Below are positions 27,369 through 39,070 of a stretch of DNA of 47,426 nt, one piece after another. The notes below the pieces were generated by a model that had not been told where the DNA came from, made no database searches, and saw nothing but the letters and a program-made list of their open reading frames with translations. The stretch is from a virus. Taxonomy: Duplodnaviria; Heunggongvirae; Uroviricota; Caudoviricetes. The position numbers were made by a program, and so were the translations under genes. Each line of letters begins with the position of its first letter. The first letter of the stretch is position 1. The DNA lies in the IMG/VR virus record IMGVR_UViG_2778261504_000010, positions 1 to 47,426 of that record. One strand, given 5' to 3'.

Positions 27369-27592
27369 TTGCAGTTAAACCTCCTTTTGTGACGTTCTAC
27401 AGCGGCTTTCATGGCGTTGTGTACGGTTCTTTTAATAATCCGGTGTCCCGCACTGTCATAGAACCGCCACCGGGAAGCCCCCGGATATTTAGGGAACTCA
27501 ACCGCCGCGCTACCGTCATTCATCCTGTATTCGTGGCGTTCTCCGGGAGGCTGGTATATTGCTTCGGTAACACTGAGAAGTTTAAAAGCCAT
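27365..27592 (-). CDS. hypothetical protein
   Basis: 75-aa ORF. Confidence 0.35.
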   Translation of the reverse strand: MAFKLLSVTEAIYQPPGERHEYRMNDGSAAVEFPKYPGASRWRFYDSAGHRIIKRTVHNAMKAAVERHKRRFNCK

Positions 27593-27594
27593 CG

Positions 27595-28305
27595 TTATCC
27601 CCTCCCCAGTGCCAGCGGTCTGTTGCTCTGACCATTAACCCCCTGATGCAGCCTGGCGTTCTTCCCGGCGATAAAACCGGCAGTAGCGGCAAACTCTGCA
27701 CCCCGACACGCTTTAGCTGTGCGCATATCCCCGTCGCGCAGTCCCTTAGTGCTGTGCAGGTTCTTTCTGTAAAGCTCAAGGCGGCTTTTTTCTTCCGGGG
27801 AGACGTCATACACCGCAATGACATCACGGGCACCAAAGACCCAGCCTTCGCAGAACTGGTCGCCACGGGCCACCCGCGTGGACGGACCGCAACGTTTGCA
27901 GTGTTTATCCTGATATTTTTTACGTTCAGCCATCATCTGACGGGAAAGCACATCAAACGCGTATGCCGCAATTTCCGGGCGGCTGTCAGGACCATAAAAA
28001 CGAACGTAACGTTTGAGTGAACCAGAAGCCCGGTATTCACCTGAGATGTAACACTCGACGCCGAAGGCTTTACATACCAGGTCACACAGGATGTGCATAT
28101 AACGCGGCGGCGTACTGGCATCACTCGGCGCACCCGCGCTGGCAGCTTCCTGAATGTCGAACAATTCCGCGTCGTTTTCGCTGATGCCATGCTGGCGCAT
28201 ATAAGCCTGGGCTTTTGCAATAGCGTTAGCGGCTTCTTCCGGGCTTGATGTTCCTCTGGCAAGGCGTAACAGTTTTTTGATTTTGGCAATGTATTTATCT
28301 TTCAT
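27595..28305 (-). CDS. DUF2786-like phage protein
   Basis: 236 aa; N-terminus KIKKLLRLARGTSSPEEAANAIAKAQ resembles the motif of that family as recalled; Cys-rich centre. Confidence 0.45.
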   Translation of the reverse strand: MKDKYIAKIKKLLRLARGTSSPEEAANAIAKAQAYMRQHGISENDAELFDIQEAASAGAPSDASTPPRYMHILCDLVCKAFGVECYISGEYRASGSLKRYVRFYGPDSRPEIAAYAFDVLSRQMMAERKKYQDKHCKRCGPSTRVARGDQFCEGWVFGARDVIAVYDVSPEEKSRLELYRKNLHSTKGLRDGDMRTAKACRGAEFAATAGFIAGKNARLHQGVNGQSNRPLALGRG

Positions 28306-28392
28306 GGTTGTAACTCATTGTTTTTGATCAACTTATAACCACAAAACACTTGTCATAATCGCTGCCCCAACATACCAATCAGGAGTTAAAAA

Positions 28393-28611
28393 ATGATTGA
28401 TGATGAAATTGCGGCAGCAATTACTGCTAACAAAGCTGCGTGGAGCTTTCTGGTTAAACAGCTTTCAGAAAATGGCTGTCTGAACCTCAGCGCCCTGGAT
28501 TCTGAATTACGCAACTTCCAGCACGGCCTTCAGGAACGTGGGGAGTTCGTTCTGGCTGCGGCGCTGGATGAACATCTGCTGTCGATTGAGAACTGGTCGC
28601 AAGACGATTAA
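28393..28611 (+). CDS. small acidic protein encoded antisense to the early operon
   Basis: 72 aa; RBS AGGAG 7 nt upstream of ATG; followed by a terminator hairpin. Confidence 0.5.
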   Translation: MIDDEIAAAITANKAAWSFLVKQLSENGCLNLSALDSELRNFQHGLQERGEFVLAAALDEHLLSIENWSQDD

Positions 28612-28688
28612 AACAAACGATTGTCAGATTAATTTCGCGGGCGAACTTTTTTTGCTTAGCGATATTCATAAATAAACTCTCTCTGATT

Positions 28689-28730
28689 CAGGCGTAAGCC
28701 AGCCCCGGCGGGTTTACGCCTGTTTTAAAT
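28689..28730 (+). terminator. rho-independent terminator
   Basis: Stem caggcgtaa/ttacgcctg (28689-28722) followed by TTTTAAAT. Confidence 0.55.
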
Positions 28731-28751
28731 AACAATTGAAAACAAATTAAA

Positions 28752-28943
28752 TTAATGCGGTGCTTTCAGTGTTTCGATTTTAACGAAATAAGGCTCGACA
28801 TTAATTTCAACCACACAACCACATTTAAAATCTCTGGCGGGTGCAACAGTTTTTACCACCCGACCACCACGCACCGCCCGGTGTGCAATGTGCATGAAAC
28901 GAGTACCTGGCGGATATAGCTGATTAAAGCGTTTCGCGTTCAT
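28752..28943 (-). CDS. hypothetical protein
   Basis: 63-aa ORF. Confidence 0.3.
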   Translation of the reverse strand: MNAKRFNQLYPPGTRFMHIAHRAVRGGRVVKTVAPARDFKCGCVVEINVEPYFVKIETLKAPH

Positions 28944-29157
28944 GAGGCGGCTTCCATCCTTTCAGGTGAGCATTAGCACAGAACTCTGCCCGGTGTTCTG
29001 CCCAGATACGACGCAGGGTGCTACACGGGCTTTGCGCTGCCTTACGCCACAGTTTTTCTGCCTCGTCATAATCGCCACGTTGTTCTGCTCTGGATGCACC
29101 CAGCGAATACGCCGCGCAACTATTTCCGGCTCTGTACTCTTTGATATCCTGATGCAT
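28924..29157 (-). CDS. hypothetical protein
   Basis: Start taken at MHQDIKEY just after the upstream stop; the longer ORF-track version overlaps the upstream gene by 110 nt. Confidence 0.35.
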   Translation of the reverse strand: MHQDIKEYRAGNSCAAYSLGASRAEQRGDYDEAEKLWRKAAQSPCSTLRRIWAEHRAEFCANAHLKGWKPPHERETL

Positions 29158-29158
29158 G

Positions 29159-29803
29159 TTAAACCCCTGCAATATCAAGCGGGATTGAGCGGTATTCAGC
29201 AGAATCACCGACGCGCTCATACACGCGGATATAGCTTCTGCTGCCAACCACCTGGACGGCTTCACCAATCAGTTTCATGGCGTTATCCCAGCGTTCCTCC
29301 GTAATATCGAGACGACGCAGAGCCAGAACGCGCCCGGTGTTAATGTTGCCTTCCTTGTCCGTGCTGAATGCCTCGCTGATGATGGCTTTAATTTCAGGGC
29401 GTGCTCCTTCCGTCCAGTCAGCCAGACAGTCATCAATCAGTGCCTTCGCGGTCTGAATGCGTTCATCAAGCGCGATACGGTCCTGCATGGCGCGCTGAAT
29501 CTTGTAACGTCCGTCAAAGCTGTAAAGCGTGATATTCCCTTTTTTACCGCCTTTCACAGCGCCGTATTTCTCCGCCGACAGGTCAATAAACGCCTGAATA
29601 TCACCAAACGCACGCAGTTTCAGTTCACGCAGTGAGGCGGAGGCAGCAATCACCATCTCCACAAGCTCACCGACCAGCTGCTCGCGGTCACGGTCAATAT
29701 CTTTGATAAGGCTTTCAGGTGTCATTACGCCACGGGCATCCACCCAGTAACCTTCAGGCGCTTGAGTTTTCGTGTATTGCTTAACTTTATTTTCAGTCGT
29801 CAT
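29159..29803 (-). CDS. DUF3164-like phage protein
   Basis: 214-aa ORF; family assignment from memory only. Confidence 0.45.
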   Translation of the reverse strand: MTTENKVKQYTKTQAPEGYWVDARGVMTPESLIKDIDRDREQLVGELVEMVIAASASLRELKLRAFGDIQAFIDLSAEKYGAVKGGKKGNITLYSFDGRYKIQRAMQDRIALDERIQTAKALIDDCLADWTEGARPEIKAIISEAFSTDKEGNINTGRVLALRRLDITEERWDNAMKLIGEAVQVVGSRSYIRVYERVGDSAEYRSIPLDIAGV

Positions 29804-29832
29804 AATTAAATTACCTCAGTGATATTTACAGA

Positions 29833-30048
29833 TTAATGTGTGTTATGCGCGCAGGGTTCCACGCCAACAGAAAATAAATCAACGACGTTAAATTCTTTAT
29901 TAAGAGTTTGATTCATTACCTCCCATAACCGTTGTCTTACACCGACCTCTTCATCCGTAAATCCTTTTTTATCAATAGCCCCCATACTCCTGACACGAAG
30001 CGTGCCGTTTTCATCGGTATAGATAATTACTTCTAACTTAACCGCCAT
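29833..30048 (-). CDS. hypothetical protein
   Basis: Start taken at MAVKLEV. Confidence 0.35.
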   Translation of the reverse strand: MAVKLEVIIYTDENGTLRVRSMGAIDKKGFTDEEVGVRQRLWEVMNQTLNKEFNVVDLFSVGVEPCAHNTH

Positions 30049-30506: not shown

Positions 30507-30746
30507 TTATTGCCATACGACGGTGCAGCCGTCGATACAGGACGTTTTAACCACACGACGCAGGCCGCTGAATGTCTGGATGATTTCCGTTACCGGCCAT
30601 ACAGGACCCCCCACGGGCGGGCAGGCATAAACCACAGGTAAACGGTGATGCTGTCCCGTTACACGGCCACCGGTGGTGTGGATGGCCACACGGGCACGGG
30701 AACGGACGGCGTTAATGGTCTGCTTGTCCATCGTCTTGTTCTCCAT
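30507..30746 (-). CDS. hypothetical protein
   Basis: 79-aa ORF; start overlaps stop of MuB-like gene. Confidence 0.35.
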   Translation of the reverse strand: MENKTMDKQTINAVRSRARVAIHTTGGRVTGQHHRLPVVYACPPVGGPVWPVTEIIQTFSGLRRVVKTSCIDGCTVVWQ

Positions 30747-31639
30747 CAGTGAATTAACATTTCTGCGAAATCATCAATAGCCTGCACACTGACCGGCGCA
30801 TCGCTGATATCACAAATCCGGTAGACCCCACGCACAAGTTTAAACAGGCGTCGGGCATTGCCCCGTGAGCGTGTGTAAAGTGCTTCACAGATTTCAGGCG
30901 CTGCTGCTTCCGGCATCAGTTCGGCGGCTATCTGGATGAAATCCTTCTGCGCCAGCGTATCGCCGAGGTCCAGCGAAAGAGCCACCCGACTGTATAGCTG
31001 CGCGAACTCCCCACGATTGCCTTTAAGATTAATCAACAGGCGCGGCATACCAGCCAGGGCAACACCGACGCCCGCCTTGTCATGCAGACGACGCAGAACT
31101 TCCAGCGCACGATAGGGGAGCAGTTCGGCTTCATCCACCATCAGCAGGCGACCGGAGTCACGCAATTCGTGTACGCAGGCATTAATCAGTTCGTGAATAT
31201 TGCCGCGAACCTTTACCCCCAACTGGCGGCACAGTTCCTCCAGCAGTGTCCTGGCTGTATAGCCCGGGTCAGCCTCAATCAGTATTGCGTCCCGGTTTCT
31301 GGCGGCGTATTCGCGCAAAATCATTGTTTTGCCAAGACCTGCCGCGCCATACAACACGCTAATTTCACACTCCAGATGAGCATAGGCCAGCGCCTCCAGC
31401 CCTTTGGCGGCCATACCTGTAGTCACAAAACTTGCTTTTACACGCCGGTTGTTTTCTTTTTCCCGTTCACGGCTGACAAAGGCAGAAATTCGCTCTTCGA
31501 TATCAGTGATATCGCCCTGATATTTACCCTGCAAATACTGGTTGATAACGGCGCTGCTACGACCAATAGCACGGGCAACGTGGGTCTGCGTATAGCCGCG
31601 ACGGGCCATTACGTCATTTAATTGCGTAATTAAACTCAT
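30746..31639 (-). CDS. MuB-like transposition ATPase
   Basis: 297 aa; N-terminal HTH-like segment then Walker A GAAGLGKT; immediately downstream of transposase. Confidence 0.8.
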   Translation of the reverse strand: MSLITQLNDVMARRGYTQTHVARAIGRSSAVINQYLQGKYQGDITDIEERISAFVSREREKENNRRVKASFVTTGMAAKGLEALAYAHLECEISVLYGAAGLGKTMILREYAARNRDAILIEADPGYTARTLLEELCRQLGVKVRGNIHELINACVHELRDSGRLLMVDEAELLPYRALEVLRRLHDKAGVGVALAGMPRLLINLKGNRGEFAQLYSRVALSLDLGDTLAQKDFIQIAAELMPEAAAPEICEALYTRSRGNARRLFKLVRGVYRICDISDAPVSVQAIDDFAEMLIH

Positions 31640-31656: not shown

Positions 31657-33702
31657 TTAACGGTTGTTTGTGCCGTCTTTCTTTAAATTGCGGTCACGCT
31701 CGGATGCAAAGAAATAAAGTTCTTCTTTTTTCTTTTCCTCCTTACGCTCCAGACCAAATCCAAAATTAAAGTCAGGTCTCTGCGTAATAGCCGGGGTAAG
31801 CTCGCGTTTAGCCTCTTCGATTTTCTGCGTGGCCCGTGCAATGCGGCCTCTGGCGCGTTTCTCCTGCTGCTGTTCGATAACAGCTTTCGGGAACGCATCA
31901 ACCTTATTACCGTTCCAGATGGCATCGCAGATATAAGAACCGTCCATCCGCCTGACAATCACGCTGTTTGCGTCGTGAATGTCGTAACAAACCCTGACTT
32001 CATTTCCGTGCTCTGCTGCCAGTTCTGTGGAGAAATAGATGTTTCTGAATAACACCACTTCACCGCGTCGCACCGTGCAGATGCTTTCCGGTCGGAACAT
32101 TTCATGCAGTTCTTCCGGCGACAGCATGTCGATTTCAGCCTTTTGCTCTTTTATCAGTTTCCGGCGATACGCTGCCGGGCTGTAATGTTCGCCATCCTCT
32201 TTGCGGGGAAGGCTGCTGTGTGGCCGGTTGTTATACCGTTTCACCTCCAGCTCTATTGCGGCCATCAGTTGCTCAAAAGTGGGGACTTCTCCCATCGCTT
32301 TAACCTGCCGCTTTGTCAGCTCTTTCCCTTTGTGGGTGGCCTTAATGGCTGACTGTGTGATGCGTTGCTGCATCATCACCGTTTCCTTGTCTGCATTTTT
32401 TGAGCAGTACGTCTGGAAACTCAGGGCCACATCTTTGGGTATTCCTTTGTTTGCCCGTTCTATTACCCCGCGCCCCTGCGGGTTACCAGGTGTCCCCGTG
32501 TGATGCTCCACACCCAGCCGGGGCAGAATCCCGGTAATATCGGCATCAAGCACCCGGTTTTTTTCACCGCCCCCGTTATCGGAGTAATAAATCAGCGGTA
32601 TTCCGTGTTGTGACATGCCATGACGCAATGCATCAGCAACGGCTATCACGTTCTCCGACAGGGACAGCGACCAGCCCACAATAAAGCGTTGCCCCGCATC
32701 CATAACCAGCGTCACTTCTGGCCGGAATGTATTCCCGGTGGCAGGGTTGAATGCCATCAGTTTCATACAGTGACCATCCCCGACCCATACCGCATTAACC
32801 GGTAATGTGCTCCAGTCGCGCCGCACAAAGGGATTGAGCGAACGCCAGGCTGAACCGGTGGAGCGGAAACGCTCTTTAACAATCACCGGGACGCTGCTTA
32901 ACACCCGTCTTACTGCGTGAACTGAAGGCAGTGCCGCCAGCATTCCCGCATCGTTCGCGTGTTTTTCATGCCACCAGGCTGAAAACTCGCGATACGCATA
33001 TTCAACGGTCGGGCGCTTCCATGAGCGATAGAACATAAAGAAATCGCTCAACCACCAGACCTGCTCCCACGGTGTTCCCTTATGATGACCGGGAGCCAGT
33101 AACGCCAGTAACTGATTGGCATCACCGCGCGCCATCAGCCAGGCGGAATACCATTCCTGTAAACTCCCTGTACTGACGCCAGTTCGCTTACCCTGTCGGG
33201 CATTGGCGGTATTACCGGCCACAATAACGCGCTCGGGCAAAGCCCCCTGGCGGATACCATCAACGATGTGTTTTATCGCTGCTGTCCTGGACATTCCTGC
33301 GTATTCACGCAGTTTATGCACTTCGGTAGCCAGCAATATCCGCGCATCAGCGATGGCCTTTTGCTTGTCGGTCAGTGCCTGGACTTCGCGTAATGCCAGT
33401 TCCGGGCATTTGACCATCACTTCCAGTTCATCACGAACGGTGACGTTCTTAACTGCCTTCTGCTCAACCACAACGGGCAGTTGTGTATCTTCCAGAATTT
33501 GCTGGGCTAGACGTTGGTGTAAAGCTTTCTGCACCTCCTCTGGAAAACTATCAATATGGTATTCAAAAGTAACACCTTTCACGCCAGCTCGTTGGCGGCT
33601 AACCCACCGTTGACGCTTTGCCATTCTAATCAGTGAGCTATTGTGTTTGGGGATACCAGCAATGCCCTGAAGTTCATTGAATGAATACCATTGGGATATC
33701 AT
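31657..33702 (-). CDS. MuA-like DDE transposase
   Basis: About 680 aa; N-terminus resembles the Mu winged-helix DNA-binding domain; start taken at MISQWYSF whose ATG overlaps the ner stop. Confidence 0.85.
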   Translation of the reverse strand: MISQWYSFNELQGIAGIPKHNSSLIRMAKRQRWVSRQRAGVKGVTFEYHIDSFPEEVQKALHQRLAQQILEDTQLPVVVEQKAVKNVTVRDELEVMVKCPELALREVQALTDKQKAIADARILLATEVHKLREYAGMSRTAAIKHIVDGIRQGALPERVIVAGNTANARQGKRTGVSTGSLQEWYSAWLMARGDANQLLALLAPGHHKGTPWEQVWWLSDFFMFYRSWKRPTVEYAYREFSAWWHEKHANDAGMLAALPSVHAVRRVLSSVPVIVKERFRSTGSAWRSLNPFVRRDWSTLPVNAVWVGDGHCMKLMAFNPATGNTFRPEVTLVMDAGQRFIVGWSLSLSENVIAVADALRHGMSQHGIPLIYYSDNGGGEKNRVLDADITGILPRLGVEHHTGTPGNPQGRGVIERANKGIPKDVALSFQTYCSKNADKETVMMQQRITQSAIKATHKGKELTKRQVKAMGEVPTFEQLMAAIELEVKRYNNRPHSSLPRKEDGEHYSPAAYRRKLIKEQKAEIDMLSPEELHEMFRPESICTVRRGEVVLFRNIYFSTELAAEHGNEVRVCYDIHDANSVIVRRMDGSYICDAIWNGNKVDAFPKAVIEQQQEKRARGRIARATQKIEEAKRELTPAITQRPDFNFGFGLERKEEKKKEELYFFASERDRNLKKDGTNNR

Positions 33703-33914
33703 AAGTATCTCTCCGGCCATATAGTTTCTGGCGACTCGCCAAGAGCTTCAGCGATAATTTTTTCTCCACGCGGATACGGCTTATCAAGAGCATTTTTCAA
33801 AGTGTACGGGGATAACGAGTTAAGCCTCCCTAAACCTGAAAGTGATAACCCTTTTTTTCGTAATTCAGCAATGACATCAGCTCGATGCCATCCGGTTCTT
33901 TTCTTGTGCTGCAT
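33699..33914 (-). CDS. Ner-like DNA-binding regulator
   Basis: 71 aa; WHRADVIAELRKKGLSLSGLGR...LKNALDKPYPRGEKIIAEALG closely resembles Mu Ner/Nlp. Confidence 0.8.
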   Translation of the reverse strand: MQHKKRTGWHRADVIAELRKKGLSLSGLGRLNSLSPYTLKNALDKPYPRGEKIIAEALGESPETIWPERYL

Positions 33915-35170: not shown

Positions 35171-35459
35171 TGGTTTTATAGGCCAAGAACCCTTGGCCTT
35201 ATCTAATTGATACAATCAACCCGATCTAAATCATCATAATCATCTTAAAGCCTGCTTGGTTAAATGTATTAAAAACAACCTAAGTTTGCTGCATAATCTG
35301 AGCAAATTCACCCAGAAAAAAACGTAAAAAAAAGCATTTTTGCGCATTTTCTTCAAAACGATCCAGAATCGGTGAAATCTCCCACATCCCGCACCAATCA
35401 AGGCCTACAGGCTTATATTGACTGCTCGGACTCAGCCCAGAATTGATCACCACCCCACA
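35171..35459. mobile_element. Mu-like prophage terminal region (transposase-binding end) and junction with host
   Basis: Non-coding; AAAACG/CGTTTT-type motifs at 35321-35370; element ends ...ccaca at 35459, where the ynfF reading frame breaks. Confidence 0.5.
35181..35205 (+). terminator. terminator-like hairpin after the 209-aa gene
   Basis: Stem ggccaag/cttggcc (35181-35198) followed by T-rich ttatctaatt. Confidence 0.4.
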
Positions 35460-36586
35460 CAACCCTGACAAATATAAGCAGGTTTTGCTGAACCGATCTC
35501 TCGTGCCAACTGGATAATTTTTTCTGCCGGGATGCTGGTGATTTTTGCTGCCCATTCCGGCGTTTTAGCTATGCCGTCAGGCCCTTCGCCCAGAATATAG
35601 GCTTTATAATGCGCGTTACGTGGTGCGTTGGCGGGCAGCGTTTTTTCATCGTAACCAACACAATATTTGTCGAGAAATGGCTGATCGACCATGTTTTCAG
35701 TAATCAGTACCCAGGCAATCGCACAGGCCAGTGCGCCATCGGTGCCAGGGCGAATGGGCAGCCATTCATCTTCACGCCCGGCAGCAGTGTCGTTATAACG
35801 TGGATCGATGACGATCATGCGTGCGTTTGAACGTTCGCGGGCTTGCTCGACGTAGTAAGTGACACCACCGCCGCTCATCCGCGTTTCTGCCGGGTTATTT
35901 CCGAACATAACGACCAGTTTCGTATTGGCGATATCATCCGGGCTGTTGCCATCATTGGCACCGAACATATAACTCATTGCGGCACTGATCTGTGCGGTAC
36001 TGTAGCTGCCATAGCGACTGAGAAAACCACCGCAAGAGTTCATCAGACGGTACGGGACGTTTGAGTTGGTGATGTTTCCGCCATCTACGCCTGTTCCGTA
36101 CAGGACATGTACAGCCTCATTGCCGTAATCTTTCAGGATCCGCCGAAGATTATCACTGATGGTATCCAGGGCTTCGTCCCAACTTATCCGTTCAAATTTA
36201 CCTTCACCGCGCTTGCCGACGCGCTTCATGGGATATTTCAACCTATCAGGATGATTCATCCGTCGGCGGATAGAGCGCCCGCGTAAACACGCTCGAACCT
36301 GATGGTTACCGTAGACGTCGTCACCTGTCGTATCAGACTCCACCCAGTACACGGTGTCATCTTTCACATGCAAACGTAACAGACAGCGGCTCCCGCAGTT
36401 AACGGTGCAGGAACTCCAGACCGCTTTCTCTTCTACCGGAGCCTCTGCCGCCCGGACCATTTGGGAAAATGGCAGAGTGAAAGCACTGCTTGCCAGCGCA
36501 AGACTGCCAAGTGCGGAGGTTTTCATCAGACTTCTACGGCTGATTTCAGCCTTCATGAGCGCCTCTGTGGTATGGATTTTCATCAT
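35450..36586 (-). pseudogene. ynfF: ynfF', 5' fragment of DMSO-reductase-family catalytic subunit truncated by the prophage
   Basis: 378 aa with Tat motif SRRSLMK; paralogous to the full-length downstream gene up to ...AKPAYICQG, then CVGW-stop where the paralogue continues WGPQRQ. Confidence 0.75.
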
Positions 36587-36643: not shown

Positions 36644-39070
36644 TTATATTTTTTCGATCTCGACCAGATTAGTGTGCTGCGGGTTTCCCTTCGCCAGTGG
36701 TGAAGGGCGCAGAGTGGTTAGCGTATTCACACAGCCGCCATGGTCGATTTTATCGCCAGACATATTGGCCTCGTGCCAGGCTCCCTGGCCCATAGCGCTA
36801 ACTCCAGGGAGAATACGTGGTGTTACTTTGGCTGGTAGCCGAACTTCGCCACGATGGTTAAACACCCGCACCATATCGCCGTTGGCAATCCCACGTTTCT
36901 GCGCATCTATAGGGTTGATCCACACCTCCTGACGGCAGGCAGCCTTCAGGAGATCAATATTGCCGTAGGTCGAGTGAGTACGGGATTTGTAATGGAAACC
37001 AAACAGTTGCAGTGGGAAGGTTCTACGTTCAGGGGAGTTCCAGCCTTCAAAGGTTGAGGCATAAACTGGCAATGGGCTTATCACTTCATCTTTTTCCAGT
37101 TCCCAGGTACGGGCAATTTCCGCCAGCCTGCTGGAATAAATTTCAATCTTACCGGAAGGCGTTTTAAGTGGATTTGCCTCGGGGTCGTCACGAAATGCTT
37201 TGTAGGCGACAAAATGGCCATTGGGATCTTTACGCTTATAGATACCCATTTTTTTCAGTTCGTCGTAAGACGGTAACGCCGGATCTTTGGCAAGCATTTT
37301 GGCGTACAGATGTTGTAACCATTGTTCCTGCGTGCGACCTTCTGTGAACTTTTGATAGACGTCAGGTCCAAGACGTTTCGCGACTTCACTCAGGATCCAG
37401 TAAATCGGTTTGCGTTCGAATTTTTCGCTGGTGACAGGCTGGAGGAAAATGAGATATCCCATGTTACCGGCGTAGTCGTTAGGAATAATATCTTCCTGCT
37501 CAACGGTCATCAGGTCTGGCAGCAGAATGTCGGCATATTTTGCCGATGAGGTCATAAAGTTTTCGATGATCACAATCATTTCGCATTTCGATTCGTCCTG
37601 CAGAATTTCATGCGTTTTGTTGATGTCAGAATGCTGATTAACGAGGGTATTTCCCGCGTAGTTCCAGATGAACTTAATGGGCACATCCAGTTTATCTTTG
37701 CCGCGGACGCCGTCGCGGATTGCCGTCATTTGCGGACCATGATCGATAGCATCTGTCCAGCTGAAGCAGGAGATTGACGTTTTGACCGGATTATCCAGCA
37801 CCGGCAGGCGTTCTATGGTAATGGTATAGGTCGATTCACGCGCGCCACTATTTCCGCCGCTGATGCCGACATTGCCCGTCAAAATAGGTAACATAGCAAT
37901 AGCGCGTGCAGTCAGTTCGCCGTTTGCCTGGCGTTGCGGCCCCCAGCCCTGGCAGATATAAGCGGGTTTTGCTGTGCCAATTTCACGCGCCAGTTTGATG
38001 ATACGGTCTACCGGGATACCGGTAATTTGCGAAGCCCACTGCGGCGTTTTCGCTGTGTTATCATCACCTTCACCAAGAATATAGGCTTTATAGTGACCAT
38101 TTTTGGGTGCATCTGCGGGTAAGGTTTTTTCGTCATAGCCGACGCAGTATTTATCGAGAAAAGGTTGATCAACGAGATTTTCGTTAATCAATACCCAGGC
38201 AATACCCGCAACCAGCGCGGCATCGGTGCCCGGGCGAATAGGGAGCCATTCATCTTCACGACCAGCAGCCGTATCGGTATATCGCGGATCGATAACAATC
38301 ATTTTGGCGTTCGATTTCTCGCGCGCTTTTTCAAGAAGATAAGTGATGCCAACGCCGCTCATGCGGGTTTCTGCCGGGTTGTTACCAAACATCACGACCA
38401 GCTTGCTGTTTTCAATATCCGTGGTGCTGTTGCCATCATTACTGCCGTAGGTGTAGGGCATGGCACAGGAAATTTGCGCGGTGCTGTAGGAGCCATACTG
38501 ATTGAGTGAACCGCCGTAGCAGTTCATCAGGCGTTTGACCGCCGAGGCTGATGGCGAAGAGCGGGTCATATTGCCGCCAACAATCCCCGAAGAGTACTGA
38601 ATATATACAGCCTCATTGCCATATTGTTCGACGGTTTTTTTCAGGCTACTGGCGATAGTATCCAGGGCTTCATCCCAGCTAATCCGTTCGAATTTGCCTT
38701 CACCGCGTGTACCCACGCGTTTCATTGGGTAATTCAAGCGATCGGGATGATTAATACGCCGGCGGATGGAGCGACCGCGCAAACAGGCGCGTACCTGATG
38801 GTTGCCGTACTCATCGCTGCCGGTATTGTCAGTTTCCACCCAGGTCACTTCATTATCTTTAACATGTAGACGAAGTGCACAGCGGCTACCACAGTTGACG
38901 GAACAGGCACCCCAGATCACTTTTTCGCTGGCCTGTTGTACCGTTGCCGCTGCACTGCGCAGGGTGAACGGTAAAGAAAAACCGCCTGCAGCCAGCGCCA
39001 GAGAACCTATCGCGGTTGATTTAACGAGTGTTCTGCGGCTGATGCCCACCATTCGGTCATTTTTGGACAT
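36644..39070 (-). CDS. ynfE: DMSO/selenate reductase-family molybdoenzyme catalytic subunit
   Basis: 808 aa; Tat signal SRRTLVK; Cys cluster CSVNCGSRC; promoter-proximal of the ynfEF pair. Confidence 0.85.
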   Translation of the reverse strand: MSKNDRMVGISRRTLVKSTAIGSLALAAGGFSLPFTLRSAAATVQQASEKVIWGACSVNCGSRCALRLHVKDNEVTWVETDNTGSDEYGNHQVRACLRGRSIRRRINHPDRLNYPMKRVGTRGEGKFERISWDEALDTIASSLKKTVEQYGNEAVYIQYSSGIVGGNMTRSSPSASAVKRLMNCYGGSLNQYGSYSTAQISCAMPYTYGSNDGNSTTDIENSKLVVMFGNNPAETRMSGVGITYLLEKAREKSNAKMIVIDPRYTDTAAGREDEWLPIRPGTDAALVAGIAWVLINENLVDQPFLDKYCVGYDEKTLPADAPKNGHYKAYILGEGDDNTAKTPQWASQITGIPVDRIIKLAREIGTAKPAYICQGWGPQRQANGELTARAIAMLPILTGNVGISGGNSGARESTYTITIERLPVLDNPVKTSISCFSWTDAIDHGPQMTAIRDGVRGKDKLDVPIKFIWNYAGNTLVNQHSDINKTHEILQDESKCEMIVIIENFMTSSAKYADILLPDLMTVEQEDIIPNDYAGNMGYLIFLQPVTSEKFERKPIYWILSEVAKRLGPDVYQKFTEGRTQEQWLQHLYAKMLAKDPALPSYDELKKMGIYKRKDPNGHFVAYKAFRDDPEANPLKTPSGKIEIYSSRLAEIARTWELEKDEVISPLPVYASTFEGWNSPERRTFPLQLFGFHYKSRTHSTYGNIDLLKAACRQEVWINPIDAQKRGIANGDMVRVFNHRGEVRLPAKVTPRILPGVSAMGQGAWHEANMSGDKIDHGGCVNTLTTLRPSPLAKGNPQHTNLVEIEKI

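What the first reader, a model, noticed from the sequence alone, without database searches (positions are those of the whole stretch)
28306..28738. Antisense 72-aa acidic protein gene inside the early operon, with its own RBS and terminator
This is the only plus-strand gene within the minus-strand early region. It has a strong RBS, a -10-like CATAAT upstream, and a clear hairpin plus T-run terminator convergent with the early operon. The arrangement resembles a stand-alone module; a small acidic protein could be an inhibitor or mimic, which is speculation.
Basis: partly seen in the sequence, partly recalled or inferred. Interest (0 to 1): 0.6.

Follow-up and report, generated by a model that had tools for sequence, protein, structure and literature searches.

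The report
Backward-facing small gene in Mu-like prophage
The 72-codon reading frame is a real gene of unknown function, found in one fixed slot of Mu-like prophages of enteric bacteria and pointing against the phage's early genes; it is an ordinary optional phage accessory gene, and the hairpin taken for its terminator belongs to the early operon.

Summary
ORF 28393-28611 (+) has AGGAG 7 nt upstream of its ATG and TGtCATAAT 33 nt upstream. A strong hairpin (28689-28722) followed by TTTT lies downstream. It is a real gene, identical to RefSeq WP_000564495.1 ("hypothetical protein"). It has 72-77 aa acidic homologues at 29-64% identity in Salmonella, Serratia, Trabulsiella and metagenomes. dN/dS in those lineages is 0.08-0.16, and AlphaFold gives a confident helical bundle (pLDDT 89). 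In 11 distinct Mu-like loci it sits in the same slot, divergent from the DUF2786/DUF7168 gene. Other Mu-like phages have that slot empty or filled with same-strand genes. No Pfam, PHROG, PADLOC, NCBIfam, PDB or fold match gives a function.

- The hairpin is a junction element of the minus-strand operon. It is present in relatives without this gene, and its T-run is not conserved.
- The gene's 3' UTR is, on the other strand, a conserved Shine-Dalgarno (SD) site, ATG and 17-codon mini-ORF.
- In E. coli the gene is usually dead: 35 of 58 genomes carry a 168-bp deletion of promoter, RBS and codons 1-27.

Best reading: an inserted, self-transcribed accessory ("moron"-type) gene, probably expressed in lysogens. 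Its target is unknown. Interest is modest.

The parts
28324..28331 (.). TTGATCAA palindrome containing a Dam GATC site and an IHF-like ATCAA core. It lies in the 87-nt divergent intergenic region between the + gene and the DUF2786 gene.
   Evidence: GATCA(A/T) is kept at this position in 7 of the 10 aligned sequences. It is not kept in L031, L033 or L034. Its role was not tested.
28351..28359 (+). Putative sigma-70 extended -10 promoter (TGtCATAAT) of the + gene. There is no -35 match.
   Evidence: Read directly from the sequence. A -10-like hexamer of the type nAnAAT sits 31-37 nt before the ATG in 9 of the 10 aligned sequences: CATAAT, TAGAAT, GATAAT or AATAAT; L034 has AACAAT. The generic scan did not call it. 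No transcript data are available.
28381..28385 (+). Shine-Dalgarno site AGGAG, 7 nt before the ATG.
   Evidence: A GGAG-type site is conserved in homologous loci.
28393..28611 (+). Gene for a 72-aa acidic all-helical protein, identical to RefSeq WP_000564495.1. It belongs to an unnamed 72-77 aa family.
   Evidence: Homologues at 29-64% identity. dN/dS 0.08-0.16 in other lineages. AlphaFold2 with the 16-sequence alignment gives pLDDT 89 and pTM 0.72, with helices at 2-12, 14-26, 32-48 and 52-71. The synteny is conserved.
28308..28475 (.). Segment missing from most E. coli relatives: a 168-bp deletion between two ATGG microhomologies (28304-28307 and 28472-28475). It removes the promoter, the RBS and codons 1-27.
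   Evidence: The junction is identical in 9 sequenced relatives. 35 of 58 E. coli genomes match only from query position 167 or 173 onward. Salmonella and Serratia outgroups carry the full gene, so the short form is derived.
28487..28669 (-). Minus-strand ORF of 60 aa. It has a conserved SD-like run (28677-28684), an ATG (28669) and about 17 conserved N-terminal codons that coincide with the + gene's 3' UTR. The remainder is the antisense frame of the + gene.
   Evidence: The peptide M-N/K-x-R-S-D/N-x-x-[IVLM]-x-R-E-[IV]-x-x-T-I is kept in 10 lineages through synonymous changes (Arg as CGY or AGA, Thr with all four codons). In E. coli alleles, all 5 changes between 28612 and 28669 are synonymous third-position changes in this frame. 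The overlapping part shows pN > pS, and its length is what chance gives. PGAP annotates this ORF in the deletion variants.
28689..28722 (.). Conserved G+C-rich hairpin, a junction element of the minus-strand early operon located just after the 63-aa gene. In this window it is followed on the + strand by TTTT (28723-28726), so it may also stop the + transcript.
   Evidence: -25.2 kcal/mol, z = -4.7. It is present in Mu-like prophages without the + gene. Copies flank extra cassettes in L002. Variants carry compensatory changes in the inner stem. There is no Rfam match.
27595..28305 (-). DUF2786/DUF7168 gene (236 aa, basic, net charge +12), the conserved divergent neighbour of the + gene.
   Evidence: Pfam hits at 5e-13 and 2.5e-29. 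It is the neighbour in every Mu-like locus that carries the + gene.
28752..28943 (-). 63-aa early gene (p63), the conserved neighbour on the other side. The hairpin follows its stop codon.

Best explanation
The ORF is a real, independently expressed accessory gene of the kind phage biologists call a moron. In one Enterobacterales clade of Mu-like transposable phages it occupies a fixed slot in the semi-essential part of the early region. That slot lies between the 63-aa gene with its junction hairpin and the DUF2786/DUF7168 gene, and the gene is oriented against the early operon.

It encodes a small, acidic, cytoplasmic helical-bundle protein.

Inferred mechanism:
1. The gene is transcribed from its own -35-less extended -10 promoter whenever the early promoter Pe is repressed, that is, in the lysogen.
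2. It is shut down by head-on Pe transcription during lytic growth.
3. Its transcript ends at or near the shared hairpin.
4. The protein acts by binding another protein of a competing phage, of the host or of the prophage, rather than DNA.

The gene is dispensable for the prophage and is being lost in E. coli.

Shown: it codes for a protein, the protein is under selection, its position and signals are conserved, it is an insertion relative to other Mu-like phages, and it is frequently lost. Inferred: promoter activity, expression in the lysogen and action by protein binding. Unknown: the target.
For: Coding and selection:
- Full-length homologues of 72-77 aa at 29-64% identity.
- dN/dS of 0.12, 0.15, 0.08, 0.16 and 0.13 in five pairs of relatives.
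- A confident fold with only 16 sequences in the alignment.

Fixed slot and orientation:
- E. coli, Salmonella, Serratia fonticola, Trabulsiella and six metagenomic or read-archive lineages all place it divergent from DUF2786/DUF7168.

Inserted cassette:
- Pseudomonas phage B3 and Shewanella phage MuM16-2 run from DUF3164 to DUF2786 on one strand with nothing reversed.
- A Citrobacter prophage has hairpin, SD and DUF2786 directly adjacent. Trabulsiella, Buttiauxella and Intestinirhabdus prophages have a same-strand zinc-ribbon gene there instead.

Own expression signals:
- The -10 hexamer and SD are conserved at fixed distances while the surrounding intergenic DNA has diverged.

Protein rather than DNA binder:
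- The whole family is acidic, and no helix-turn-helix or other family is detected.

Some value apart from the phage:
- Intact copies under purifying selection survive in IS-rich islands with no Mu-like genes in the DNA fetched around them (Serratia odorifera; L032-L034).

Dispensable:
- The 168-bp deletion is present in 35 of 58 E. coli genomes while the flanking genes stay intact.
Against: - There is no transcript, transcription-start or protein evidence of any kind.
- The promoter lacks a -35 element, and the generic scan did not call it.
- There is no dedicated terminator.
- G+C content (49%) equals that of the early region (50%), so there is no compositional sign of recent import.
- Strict conservation of position next to DUF2786 across 29-64% protein divergence would also fit an integral regulatory role in the phage.
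- Within E. coli the two intact alleles differ by 5 non-synonymous and 0 synonymous changes. In this lineage the gene may already be under relaxed selection.
- No homology or fold match supports any particular activity.
Confidence: 0.5

Rival explanations
1. The module is a cis-acting antisense or convergent-transcription checkpoint inside the early operon. The + transcript, from about 28366 to the hairpin, is complementary to the early mRNA across the SD, the ATG and the conserved first 17 codons of the minus-strand mini-ORF. Pairing, or head-on polymerase collision, would block translation of that mini-ORF. This would expose about 450 nt of untranslated early RNA to Rho and cut off the distal early genes (DUF2786 through gemA and mor). 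Leaky Pe transcripts in a lysogen would then never reach the activator of the middle and late genes.
For: - The minus-strand SD, ATG and 17-residue peptide are conserved in 10 lineages and lie exactly within the + gene's 3' UTR.
- That UTR is more conserved than silent sites of the + gene: 6 differences in 49 nt against pS = 0.33 for L019 versus L024.
- The minus-strand RNA here is somewhat C-rich: C/G reaches 1.4-1.5 against an early-region median of 0.82 and a 95th percentile of 1.29.
- GemA and Mor lie downstream on the same operon.
- Known precedents, from general knowledge: P22 sar RNA, lambda oop RNA and the convergent promoters of phage 186.
Against: - The + product is clearly selected as a protein, which a pure antisense RNA would not need.
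- Prophages with the 168-bp deletion, and Mu-like phages that never had the gene, keep the same downstream genes intact. The checkpoint is therefore not required.
- The C-richness is marginal.
- The extent of transcription was not measured.
Confidence: 0.17
2. The acidic protein is a dedicated partner, antagonist or antidote of the basic DUF2786/DUF7168 protein encoded divergently next to it. The 87-92 nt region between them would be a shared control region.
For: - DUF2786/DUF7168 is the invariant neighbour in all 11 Mu-like loci.
- The charges are opposite: -9 against +12.
- The intergenic region has a conserved length and a conserved GATCA(A/T) motif in most lineages.
Against: - DUF2786/DUF7168 occurs widely without the + gene: 163 phage records, including B3 and MuM16-2, and prophages L035, L036, L038 and L039.
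- E. coli prophages lose the + gene yet keep a full-length DUF2786 gene.
- The + gene persists without DUF2786 in IS-rich islands.
- In L022 and L023 a zinc-ribbon gene lies between the two.
Confidence: 0.13
3. The + ORF is an artefact. The real gene here would be the minus-strand 60-aa ORF (28669..28487), which PGAP annotates in the deletion variants.
For: - The minus ORF has the same hairpin, SD and ATG start as genuine minus-strand cassettes.
- In E. coli alleles it shows 11 synonymous against 10 non-synonymous changes, whereas the + frame shows 7 against 15.
Against: - In other lineages, differences in the overlap fall on minus codon position 2, which is plus position 3 (12 of 18 and 14 of 25). 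There pN exceeds pS for the minus frame, while the + frame has dN/dS of 0.12-0.15.
- The minus ORF has no homologue below 91% identity apart from one frameshifted assembly.
- Its length is what synonymous reshuffling of the + gene produces: P = 0.22-0.87 in 9 of 10 lineages.
- The most conserved part of the + protein, residues 8-24, lies outside the overlap.
Confidence: 0.03

Closest known systems
Morons of temperate phages: independently transcribed accessory genes inserted between core genes, as described for the lambdoid phages HK97 and HK022 (from general knowledge).
   Same: - A small gene with its own promoter-like signals and RBS.
- Present in some relatives and absent from the same slot in others.
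- Dispensable, and probably expressed from the repressed prophage.
   Different: - G+C content is the same as its surroundings.
- It has no terminator of its own.
- Its position and orientation are conserved across genera down to 29-64% protein identity, which is more stable than a typical recently acquired moron.
The olg1 (sie1) / gene 10 antisense pair in the Mu-like Pseudomonas phage Fc02 (PMC9936078).
   Same: - A transposable phage with a forward-strand gene expressed in the lysogen.
- That gene overlaps, in antisense, a reverse-strand gene of the early lytic operon.
- Both products are small proteins, and both cause superinfection exclusion.
   Different: - The Fc02 pair lies beside the repressor and ner switch and is co-transcribed with the repressor. 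Here the gene sits about 5 kb into the early operon with its own promoter.
- There is no sequence relation.
- Here only about 17 codons of the minus-strand partner are conserved.
- No exclusion activity has been tested.
Semi-essential early genes of phage Mu: kil, gam, gemA and other small genes between B and mor (from general knowledge).
   Same: The same region of the genome. They are small, mostly dispensable proteins that act on host or phage proteins.
   Different: - Mu's genes all read with the early operon.
- The + protein matches none of the Pfam families Kil_protein, Phage_Mu_Gam or GemA, which do detect its neighbours in related loci.
Small acidic phage inhibitors and DNA mimics: T7 Ocr, ArdA, lambda Gam and many anti-CRISPR proteins (from general knowledge).
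   Same: Small size, strong negative charge and an all-helical fold. It is encoded in an early or accessory region.
   Different: - There is no adjacent HTH (aca-like) regulator gene.
- Negative charge falls to -2 or -3 in some family members.

Membership tests
Moron (autonomously expressed prophage accessory gene) | Present in some closely related phages and absent from the same junction in others | tested here: met
   The slot is empty or holds other same-strand cassettes in L035-L040, B3 and MuM16-2. The gene is deleted in 35 of 58 E. coli genomes.
Moron (autonomously expressed prophage accessory gene) | Own promoter | tested here: inconclusive
   TGtCATAAT lies 33 nt upstream. A -10-like hexamer is conserved at that position in 9 of the 10 aligned sequences. 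There is no -35 element, the generic scan was negative, and there are no transcript data.
Moron (autonomously expressed prophage accessory gene) | Own factor-independent terminator | tested here: not met
   The only strong hairpin is a shared operon junction element that is also present where the gene is absent. Its U-tract is not conserved. The T7 run has no stem.
Moron (autonomously expressed prophage accessory gene) | Base composition different from neighbouring phage genes | tested here: not met
   The gene has 49.3% G+C and the early region 50.1%.
Moron (autonomously expressed prophage accessory gene) | Expressed from the repressed prophage | not testable with these tools
   This needs RNA-seq or a reporter fusion in a lysogen.
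Toxin-antitoxin-like pair with DUF2786/DUF7168 | The two genes occur together obligatorily | tested here: not met
   Each gene occurs without the other.
DNA-mimic or anti-restriction proteins (Ocr, ArdA) | Sequence or fold similarity to a known mimic | tested here: not met
   No Pfam, PHROG, PADLOC or NCBIfam hit. No significant PDB or BFVD match.
DNA-mimic or anti-restriction proteins (Ocr, ArdA) | Strongly acidic surface that imitates the DNA backbone | tested here: inconclusive
   Net charge ranges from -9 to -2 across the family. The geometry of the charges was not analysed.
Anti-defence locus of the acr-aca type | Small gene followed by a co-oriented HTH regulator gene | tested here: not met
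   No co-oriented gene lies downstream. The next features are the hairpin and minus-strand genes.
Cis-antisense regulatory RNA (P22 sar or lambda oop type) | Transcript complementary to the translation start of a gene on the other strand | tested here: inconclusive
   If the + transcript reaches the hairpin, it covers the SD, the ATG and 17 codons of the conserved minus-strand mini-ORF. The extent of the transcript is not known.
Cis-antisense regulatory RNA (P22 sar or lambda oop type) | The RNA is non-coding | tested here: not met
   The RNA encodes a protein under purifying selection.
Named Mu early proteins (Kil, Gam, GemA, Mor) | Match to the corresponding Pfam family | tested here: not met
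   None of the 16 family members matches any of these families.

The most novel reading that the evidence does not exclude
The + gene, its conserved promoter, the conserved minus-strand 17-codon mini-ORF hidden in its 3' UTR, and the junction hairpin together form a second lysis-lysogeny checkpoint inside the early operon of these Mu-like phages. Plus-strand transcription in the lysogen would silence, by antisense pairing or polymerase collision, the translation that the early mRNA needs to escape Rho. This would uncouple the proximal genes (transposase A, B) from the distal regulators (gemA, mor). The protein would be a second output of the same transcript.
Probability: 0.12. Interest if true: 0.7.

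Novelty: new member of a known kind. Interest (0 to 1): 0.36.

Why it matters
It gives a firm annotation to a protein now labelled "hypothetical". The protein belongs to a small, unnamed family, absent from every family library searched here, that is specific to Mu-like prophages of enteric bacteria, including the prototype EPEC strain E2348/69. Genes that point against a lytic operon and carry their own promoter are the usual hiding place of lysogen-expressed functions such as superinfection exclusion, anti-defence or host modulation. This makes it a cheap candidate to test. The locus also supplies natural controls: alleles with a clean deletion of promoter and N-terminus, and related prophages with an empty slot. 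The side findings bear on how early operons of transposable phages are assembled and read. These are a hairpin that marks cassette junctions and a peptide-constrained mini-ORF antisense to the 3' UTR. Otherwise the finding is ordinary.

Tried and rejected
Searches for function, all without an informative result:
- Pfam, PHROGs, PADLOC and NCBIfam with the single protein gave nothing. Pfam on all 16 family members gave only scattered hits at E >= 0.01.
- A profile search of PDB sequences found only designed helical proteins.
- tblastn against 50,697 phage genomes and 72,556 plasmids found no homologue. No isolated phage carries the gene.
- A scan of GTDB species-representative genomes with the family profile found nothing.
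- Literature searches for the protein accessions found nothing, and a search for DUF2786 found nothing useful.
- Rfam has no match for the hairpin or the region.

Ideas considered and dropped:
- That the short E. coli form is ancestral and the window carries an insertion. Rejected, because Salmonella, Serratia and Trabulsiella carry the full gene in the same slot.
- That P0004 shows the 5' half of the gene to be a mobile piece. Rejected: it comes from a 643-nt chimeric metagenome contig.
- That P0009 is a distant homologue of the minus ORF. Rejected: it is a frameshifted copy in an error-rich assembly.
- That the minus ORF is kept open by selection. Rejected by synonymous reshuffling of the + gene.
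- That the minus mini-ORF is a relic DUF2786 N-terminus. It gave no Pfam hit.
- That the T7 run at 28647-28653 is the terminator. It has no stem and is not conserved.
- That there is a Rho-loading (rut) signal on the minus-strand RNA. The C-richness is only marginal.
- The non-Mu contexts (L020, L033, L034) gave no informative neighbours, only IS elements, HTH transposase-type proteins and one large protein with a BNR repeat.
Full report
**What the window is.** The window holds a complete Mu-like (transposable) prophage on the minus strand. The transposase A gene is at 33720..31657 and B at 31639..30746. A run of small early genes follows, then GemA, Mor, lysis and morphogenesis genes. The stretch compared (27500-29900) matches the Mu-like prophage of E. 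coli O127:H6 E2348/69 at 96.5% identity. The finding lies in the 446-nt gap between the DUF2786/DUF7168 gene (28305..27595, minus) and a 63-aa gene called p63 here (28943..28752, minus).

**Check of the observation.**
- The ORF runs from ATG 28393 to TAA 28609-28611 and encodes 72 aa.
- AGGAG lies at 28381-28385, 7 nt from the ATG.
- CATAAT lies at 28354-28359 with TG at 28351-28352, an extended -10. There is no -35 match.
- A hairpin at 28689-28722 is followed by TTTT. It folds at -25.2 kcal/mol, z = -4.7, better than all 200 shuffles.

The generic consensus scan reported no promoter or terminator here, so the sequence alone does not prove function. In E2348/69 this is the only reversed CDS between the ner-like gene and the lysis genes. 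There it is annotated as hypothetical protein WP_000564495.1, and its coding DNA is identical to the window's.

**Is it a gene?** Yes.
- A word-indexed search of 5.8 billion protein clusters found only E. coli copies.
- An exhaustive HMMER search of 1.84 billion representatives, followed by a profile search, recovered about 15 clusters of 72-77 aa proteins at 29-64% identity. They come from Salmonella enterica, Serratia fonticola, S. odorifera, Trabulsiella odontotermitis and metagenomes, and they align end to end.
- Residues 8-24 (AAAIxANKxAWxxLxxxL) are the most conserved part.
- Nei-Gojobori dN/dS between related pairs is 0.12 (L019/L024), 0.15 (L023/L030), 0.08 (L031/L033), 0.16 (L033/L034) and 0.13 (L031/L034).
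- AlphaFold2 went from pLDDT 72 with a single sequence to pLDDT 89 and pTM 0.72 with the 16-sequence alignment. The model is a compact bundle with helices at 2-12, 14-26, 32-48 and 52-71.
- Every family member is acidic, with pI 4.2-5.9.

**Where it sits.** In 11 distinct Mu-like loci the gene lies on the strand opposite the early operon. It is divergent from a DUF2786/DUF7168 gene across an intergenic region of about 87-92 nt, and a p63-type gene with DUF3164 or Gam lies on the other side. These loci are:
- E. coli;
- two Salmonella loci;
- S. fonticola;
- Trabulsiella;
- six lineages from read archives or metagenomes.

In L022 and L023 a 59-aa zinc-ribbon gene lies between the + gene and DUF2786. 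An alignment of ten sequences of the intergenic region keeps three things while the rest diverges:
- a GATCA(A/T) motif in seven of the ten sequences (TTGATCAA at 28324-28331 in the window);
- a -10-like hexamer (CATAAT, TAGAAT, GATAAT or AATAAT) 31-37 nt before the ATG in nine of the ten sequences;
- a GGAG-type ribosome-binding site.

This is the best available evidence for a private promoter.

**It is an insertion into that slot.** More distant Mu-like phages run from DUF3164 to DUF2786 on one strand with nothing reversed: Pseudomonas B3 and Shewanella MuM16-2. Searching species-representative genomes for the hairpin found six further Mu-like prophages without the + gene.
- In Citrobacter the hairpin is followed directly by an SD and DUF2786.
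- In Trabulsiella, Buttiauxella and Intestinirhabdus a same-strand zinc-ribbon gene fills the gap.
- In Kluyvera and Pectobacterium other same-strand genes do.

The G+C content of the + gene (49%) equals that of the early region (50%), so the insertion is not recent.

**The hairpin is not this gene's terminator.**
- It always sits just after the p63 stop codon, whether or not the + gene is present.
- In E. coli relatives that carry one or two extra minus-strand cassettes, each cassette starts with its own copy of the hairpin followed by GATTC, an SD and an ATG.
- The recombination junctions between alternative cassettes fall at the end of the hairpin, after TTTACGCC.
- The TTTT that follows it in the window is replaced by ATATAC, ATTATTT, ATAGTT or AATATTT elsewhere.
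- Variants carry compensatory changes in the inner stem, such as GCC/GGC against GTC/GAC and CGCC/GGCG. The structure itself is therefore selected.
- Rfam has nothing like it.

It may still stop plus-strand transcription in this window, but it is primarily a junction element of the minus-strand operon. The other candidate, the T7 run at 28647-28653, has no usable stem and is not conserved.

**What lies on the other strand.** Directly downstream of the hairpin on the minus strand there is an SD-like run (28677-28684) and an ATG at 28669. This opens a 60-aa ORF that ends at 28487. Its first 16-19 codons coincide exactly with the + gene's 3' UTR, and they are conserved as a peptide in ten lineages: M-N/K-x-R-S-D/N-x-x-[IVLM]-x-R-E-[IV]-x-x-T-I. 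Arg is encoded by CGY in some lineages and AGA in others, Thr uses all four codons, and Ile and Ser codons vary at the third position. Among E. coli alleles, all five changes between 28612 and 28669 are synonymous third-position changes in this frame.

Beyond that point the ORF is only the antisense frame of the + gene.
- Differences fall on its second codon position, which is the + gene's third (12 of 18 and 14 of 25), and pN exceeds pS.
- Synonymous reshuffling of the + gene leaves the minus frame open as long as observed in 9 of 10 lineages, with P = 0.22-0.87.
- It has no true homologues below 91% identity.

So there is a translated, peptide-constrained start that runs on into unconstrained sequence. 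PGAP annotates it as a gene in the deletion variants. Its purpose is unexplained. It may be a relic 5' end of a displaced cassette that is kept for ribosome loading, or it may be the target of antisense control by the + mRNA.

**State of the gene in E. coli.** Of 5,426 complete E. coli genomes, 58 match the region.
- Eight have the whole gene. Four of these are re-sequencings of E2348/69.
- Thirty-five match only from position 167 or 173 of the query.
- Fifteen match only the hairpin.

The nine short forms that were sequenced share one junction. It is a 168-bp deletion between ATGG at 28304-28307 and ATGG at 28472-28475. It removes the promoter, the RBS and codons 1-27, and it brings the minus mini-ORF stop to 13 nt from the DUF2786 start. 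The outgroups show that this form is derived. The two intact E. coli alleles (the window and L006) differ by five non-synonymous and no synonymous changes. In this lineage the gene appears to be under relaxed selection or in decay.

By contrast, intact copies under purifying selection persist in IS-rich chromosomal islands with no Mu-like genes in the DNA fetched around them. These are in S. odorifera and in L032-L034, one of which keeps a six-codon relic of the DUF2786 start.

From anatomy alone I favour an accessory gene expressed in the lysogen.
- It reads in the same direction as the repressor.
- It has its own conserved -10 and SD.
- It would be silenced by head-on transcription from Pe during lytic growth.
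- It is dispensable.
- It sometimes outlives the prophage.

An acidic helical bundle without a DNA-binding motif most likely works by binding a protein. Three rivals remain:
- an antisense or convergent-transcription checkpoint that acts on the distal early genes through the mini-ORF;
- a dedicated partner of the basic DUF2786/DUF7168 protein, which is weakened because each gene occurs without the other;
- the reading that the + ORF is spurious, which is rejected.

The closest described parallel is the olg1 / gene 10 antisense pair of the Mu-like Pseudomonas phage Fc02. One strand is read in lysogeny and the other in lytic growth, and both products exclude superinfecting phages (PMC9936078). 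That pair lies at a different locus and is unrelated in sequence.

**Verdict.** This is a real, conserved, uncharacterised small gene of the accessory (moron) kind, so a new member of a known kind. The "own terminator" is a misreading of an operon junction hairpin. The inhibitor or mimic idea remains untested. Interest is modest, at 0.36. It would rise only if the gene, mini-ORF and hairpin together prove to be a regulatory checkpoint.

Noticed in passing
window 28487-28669 (minus strand), SD-like run 28677-28684: A minus-strand mini-ORF starts right after the junction hairpin. Its first ~17 codons are conserved as a peptide in 10 lineages (Arg encoded by CGY or AGA, Thr by all four codons). 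The rest is the unconstrained antisense frame of the + gene. PGAP annotates it as a gene in relatives that have lost the + gene's 5' half.
   Followed up: yes
window 28689-28722; L002 2309-2345 and 2760-2800; L035-L040: A conserved G+C-rich hairpin (GGCGTAAGCCAGCCCCGGCGGGTTTACGCC and variants with compensatory changes) marks cassette junctions in the early operon of enterobacterial Mu-like prophages. It is followed on the minus strand by an SD and the ATG of the next gene. Mosaic breakpoints fall at its edge. Its function is unknown, and Rfam has no match.
   Followed up: partly
window 28308-28475, compared with L003-L005 and L009-L014: 35 of 58 matching complete E. coli genomes carry an identical 168-bp deletion between two ATGG microhomologies. 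It places the mini-ORF stop 13 nt upstream of the DUF2786 start codon, next to a better SD (GAGG).
   Followed up: yes
window about 35460 onward (35447-36586 and 36644-39070, minus strand): The host flank starts at about 35460 and matches ynfF and ynfE (selenate/tellurate reductase subunits) at 100% identity. This prophage copy therefore appears to interrupt ynfF. The E2348/69 copy sits in eutC, as expected for a randomly transposing Mu-like phage.
   Followed up: partly
window 28924-29157 (minus strand): A 77-aa early gene is annotated in relatives as an ANR-family transcriptional regulator (small anti-activators of AraC-type virulence regulators). Its 3' end overlaps the start of the 63-aa gene by 20 nt. 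This is potentially relevant in an EPEC-type prophage. It was not examined further.
   Followed up: no
window 28324-28331: A perfect palindrome, TTGATCAA, with a Dam GATC site and an IHF-like ATCAA core. It lies about 20 nt upstream of the DUF2786 start and about 22 nt upstream of the + gene's -10. GATCA(A/T) is conserved in 7 of the 10 aligned sequences.
   Followed up: partly
L022 1325-2183 (a Mu-like relative from a read archive): This related prophage carries T6SS Hcp and Tlde1-domain genes between the GemA region and the lysis genes. This looks like effector-type cargo in a Mu-like prophage.
   Followed up: no
L020/L021 (Serratia odorifera chromosome) and L032-L034: Intact family members under purifying selection sit in IS-rich islands with no Mu-like genes in the DNA fetched around them. 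L033 keeps only the first six codons (MENKDK) of the neighbouring DUF2786 gene. The gene seems able to outlive its prophage.
   Followed up: partly
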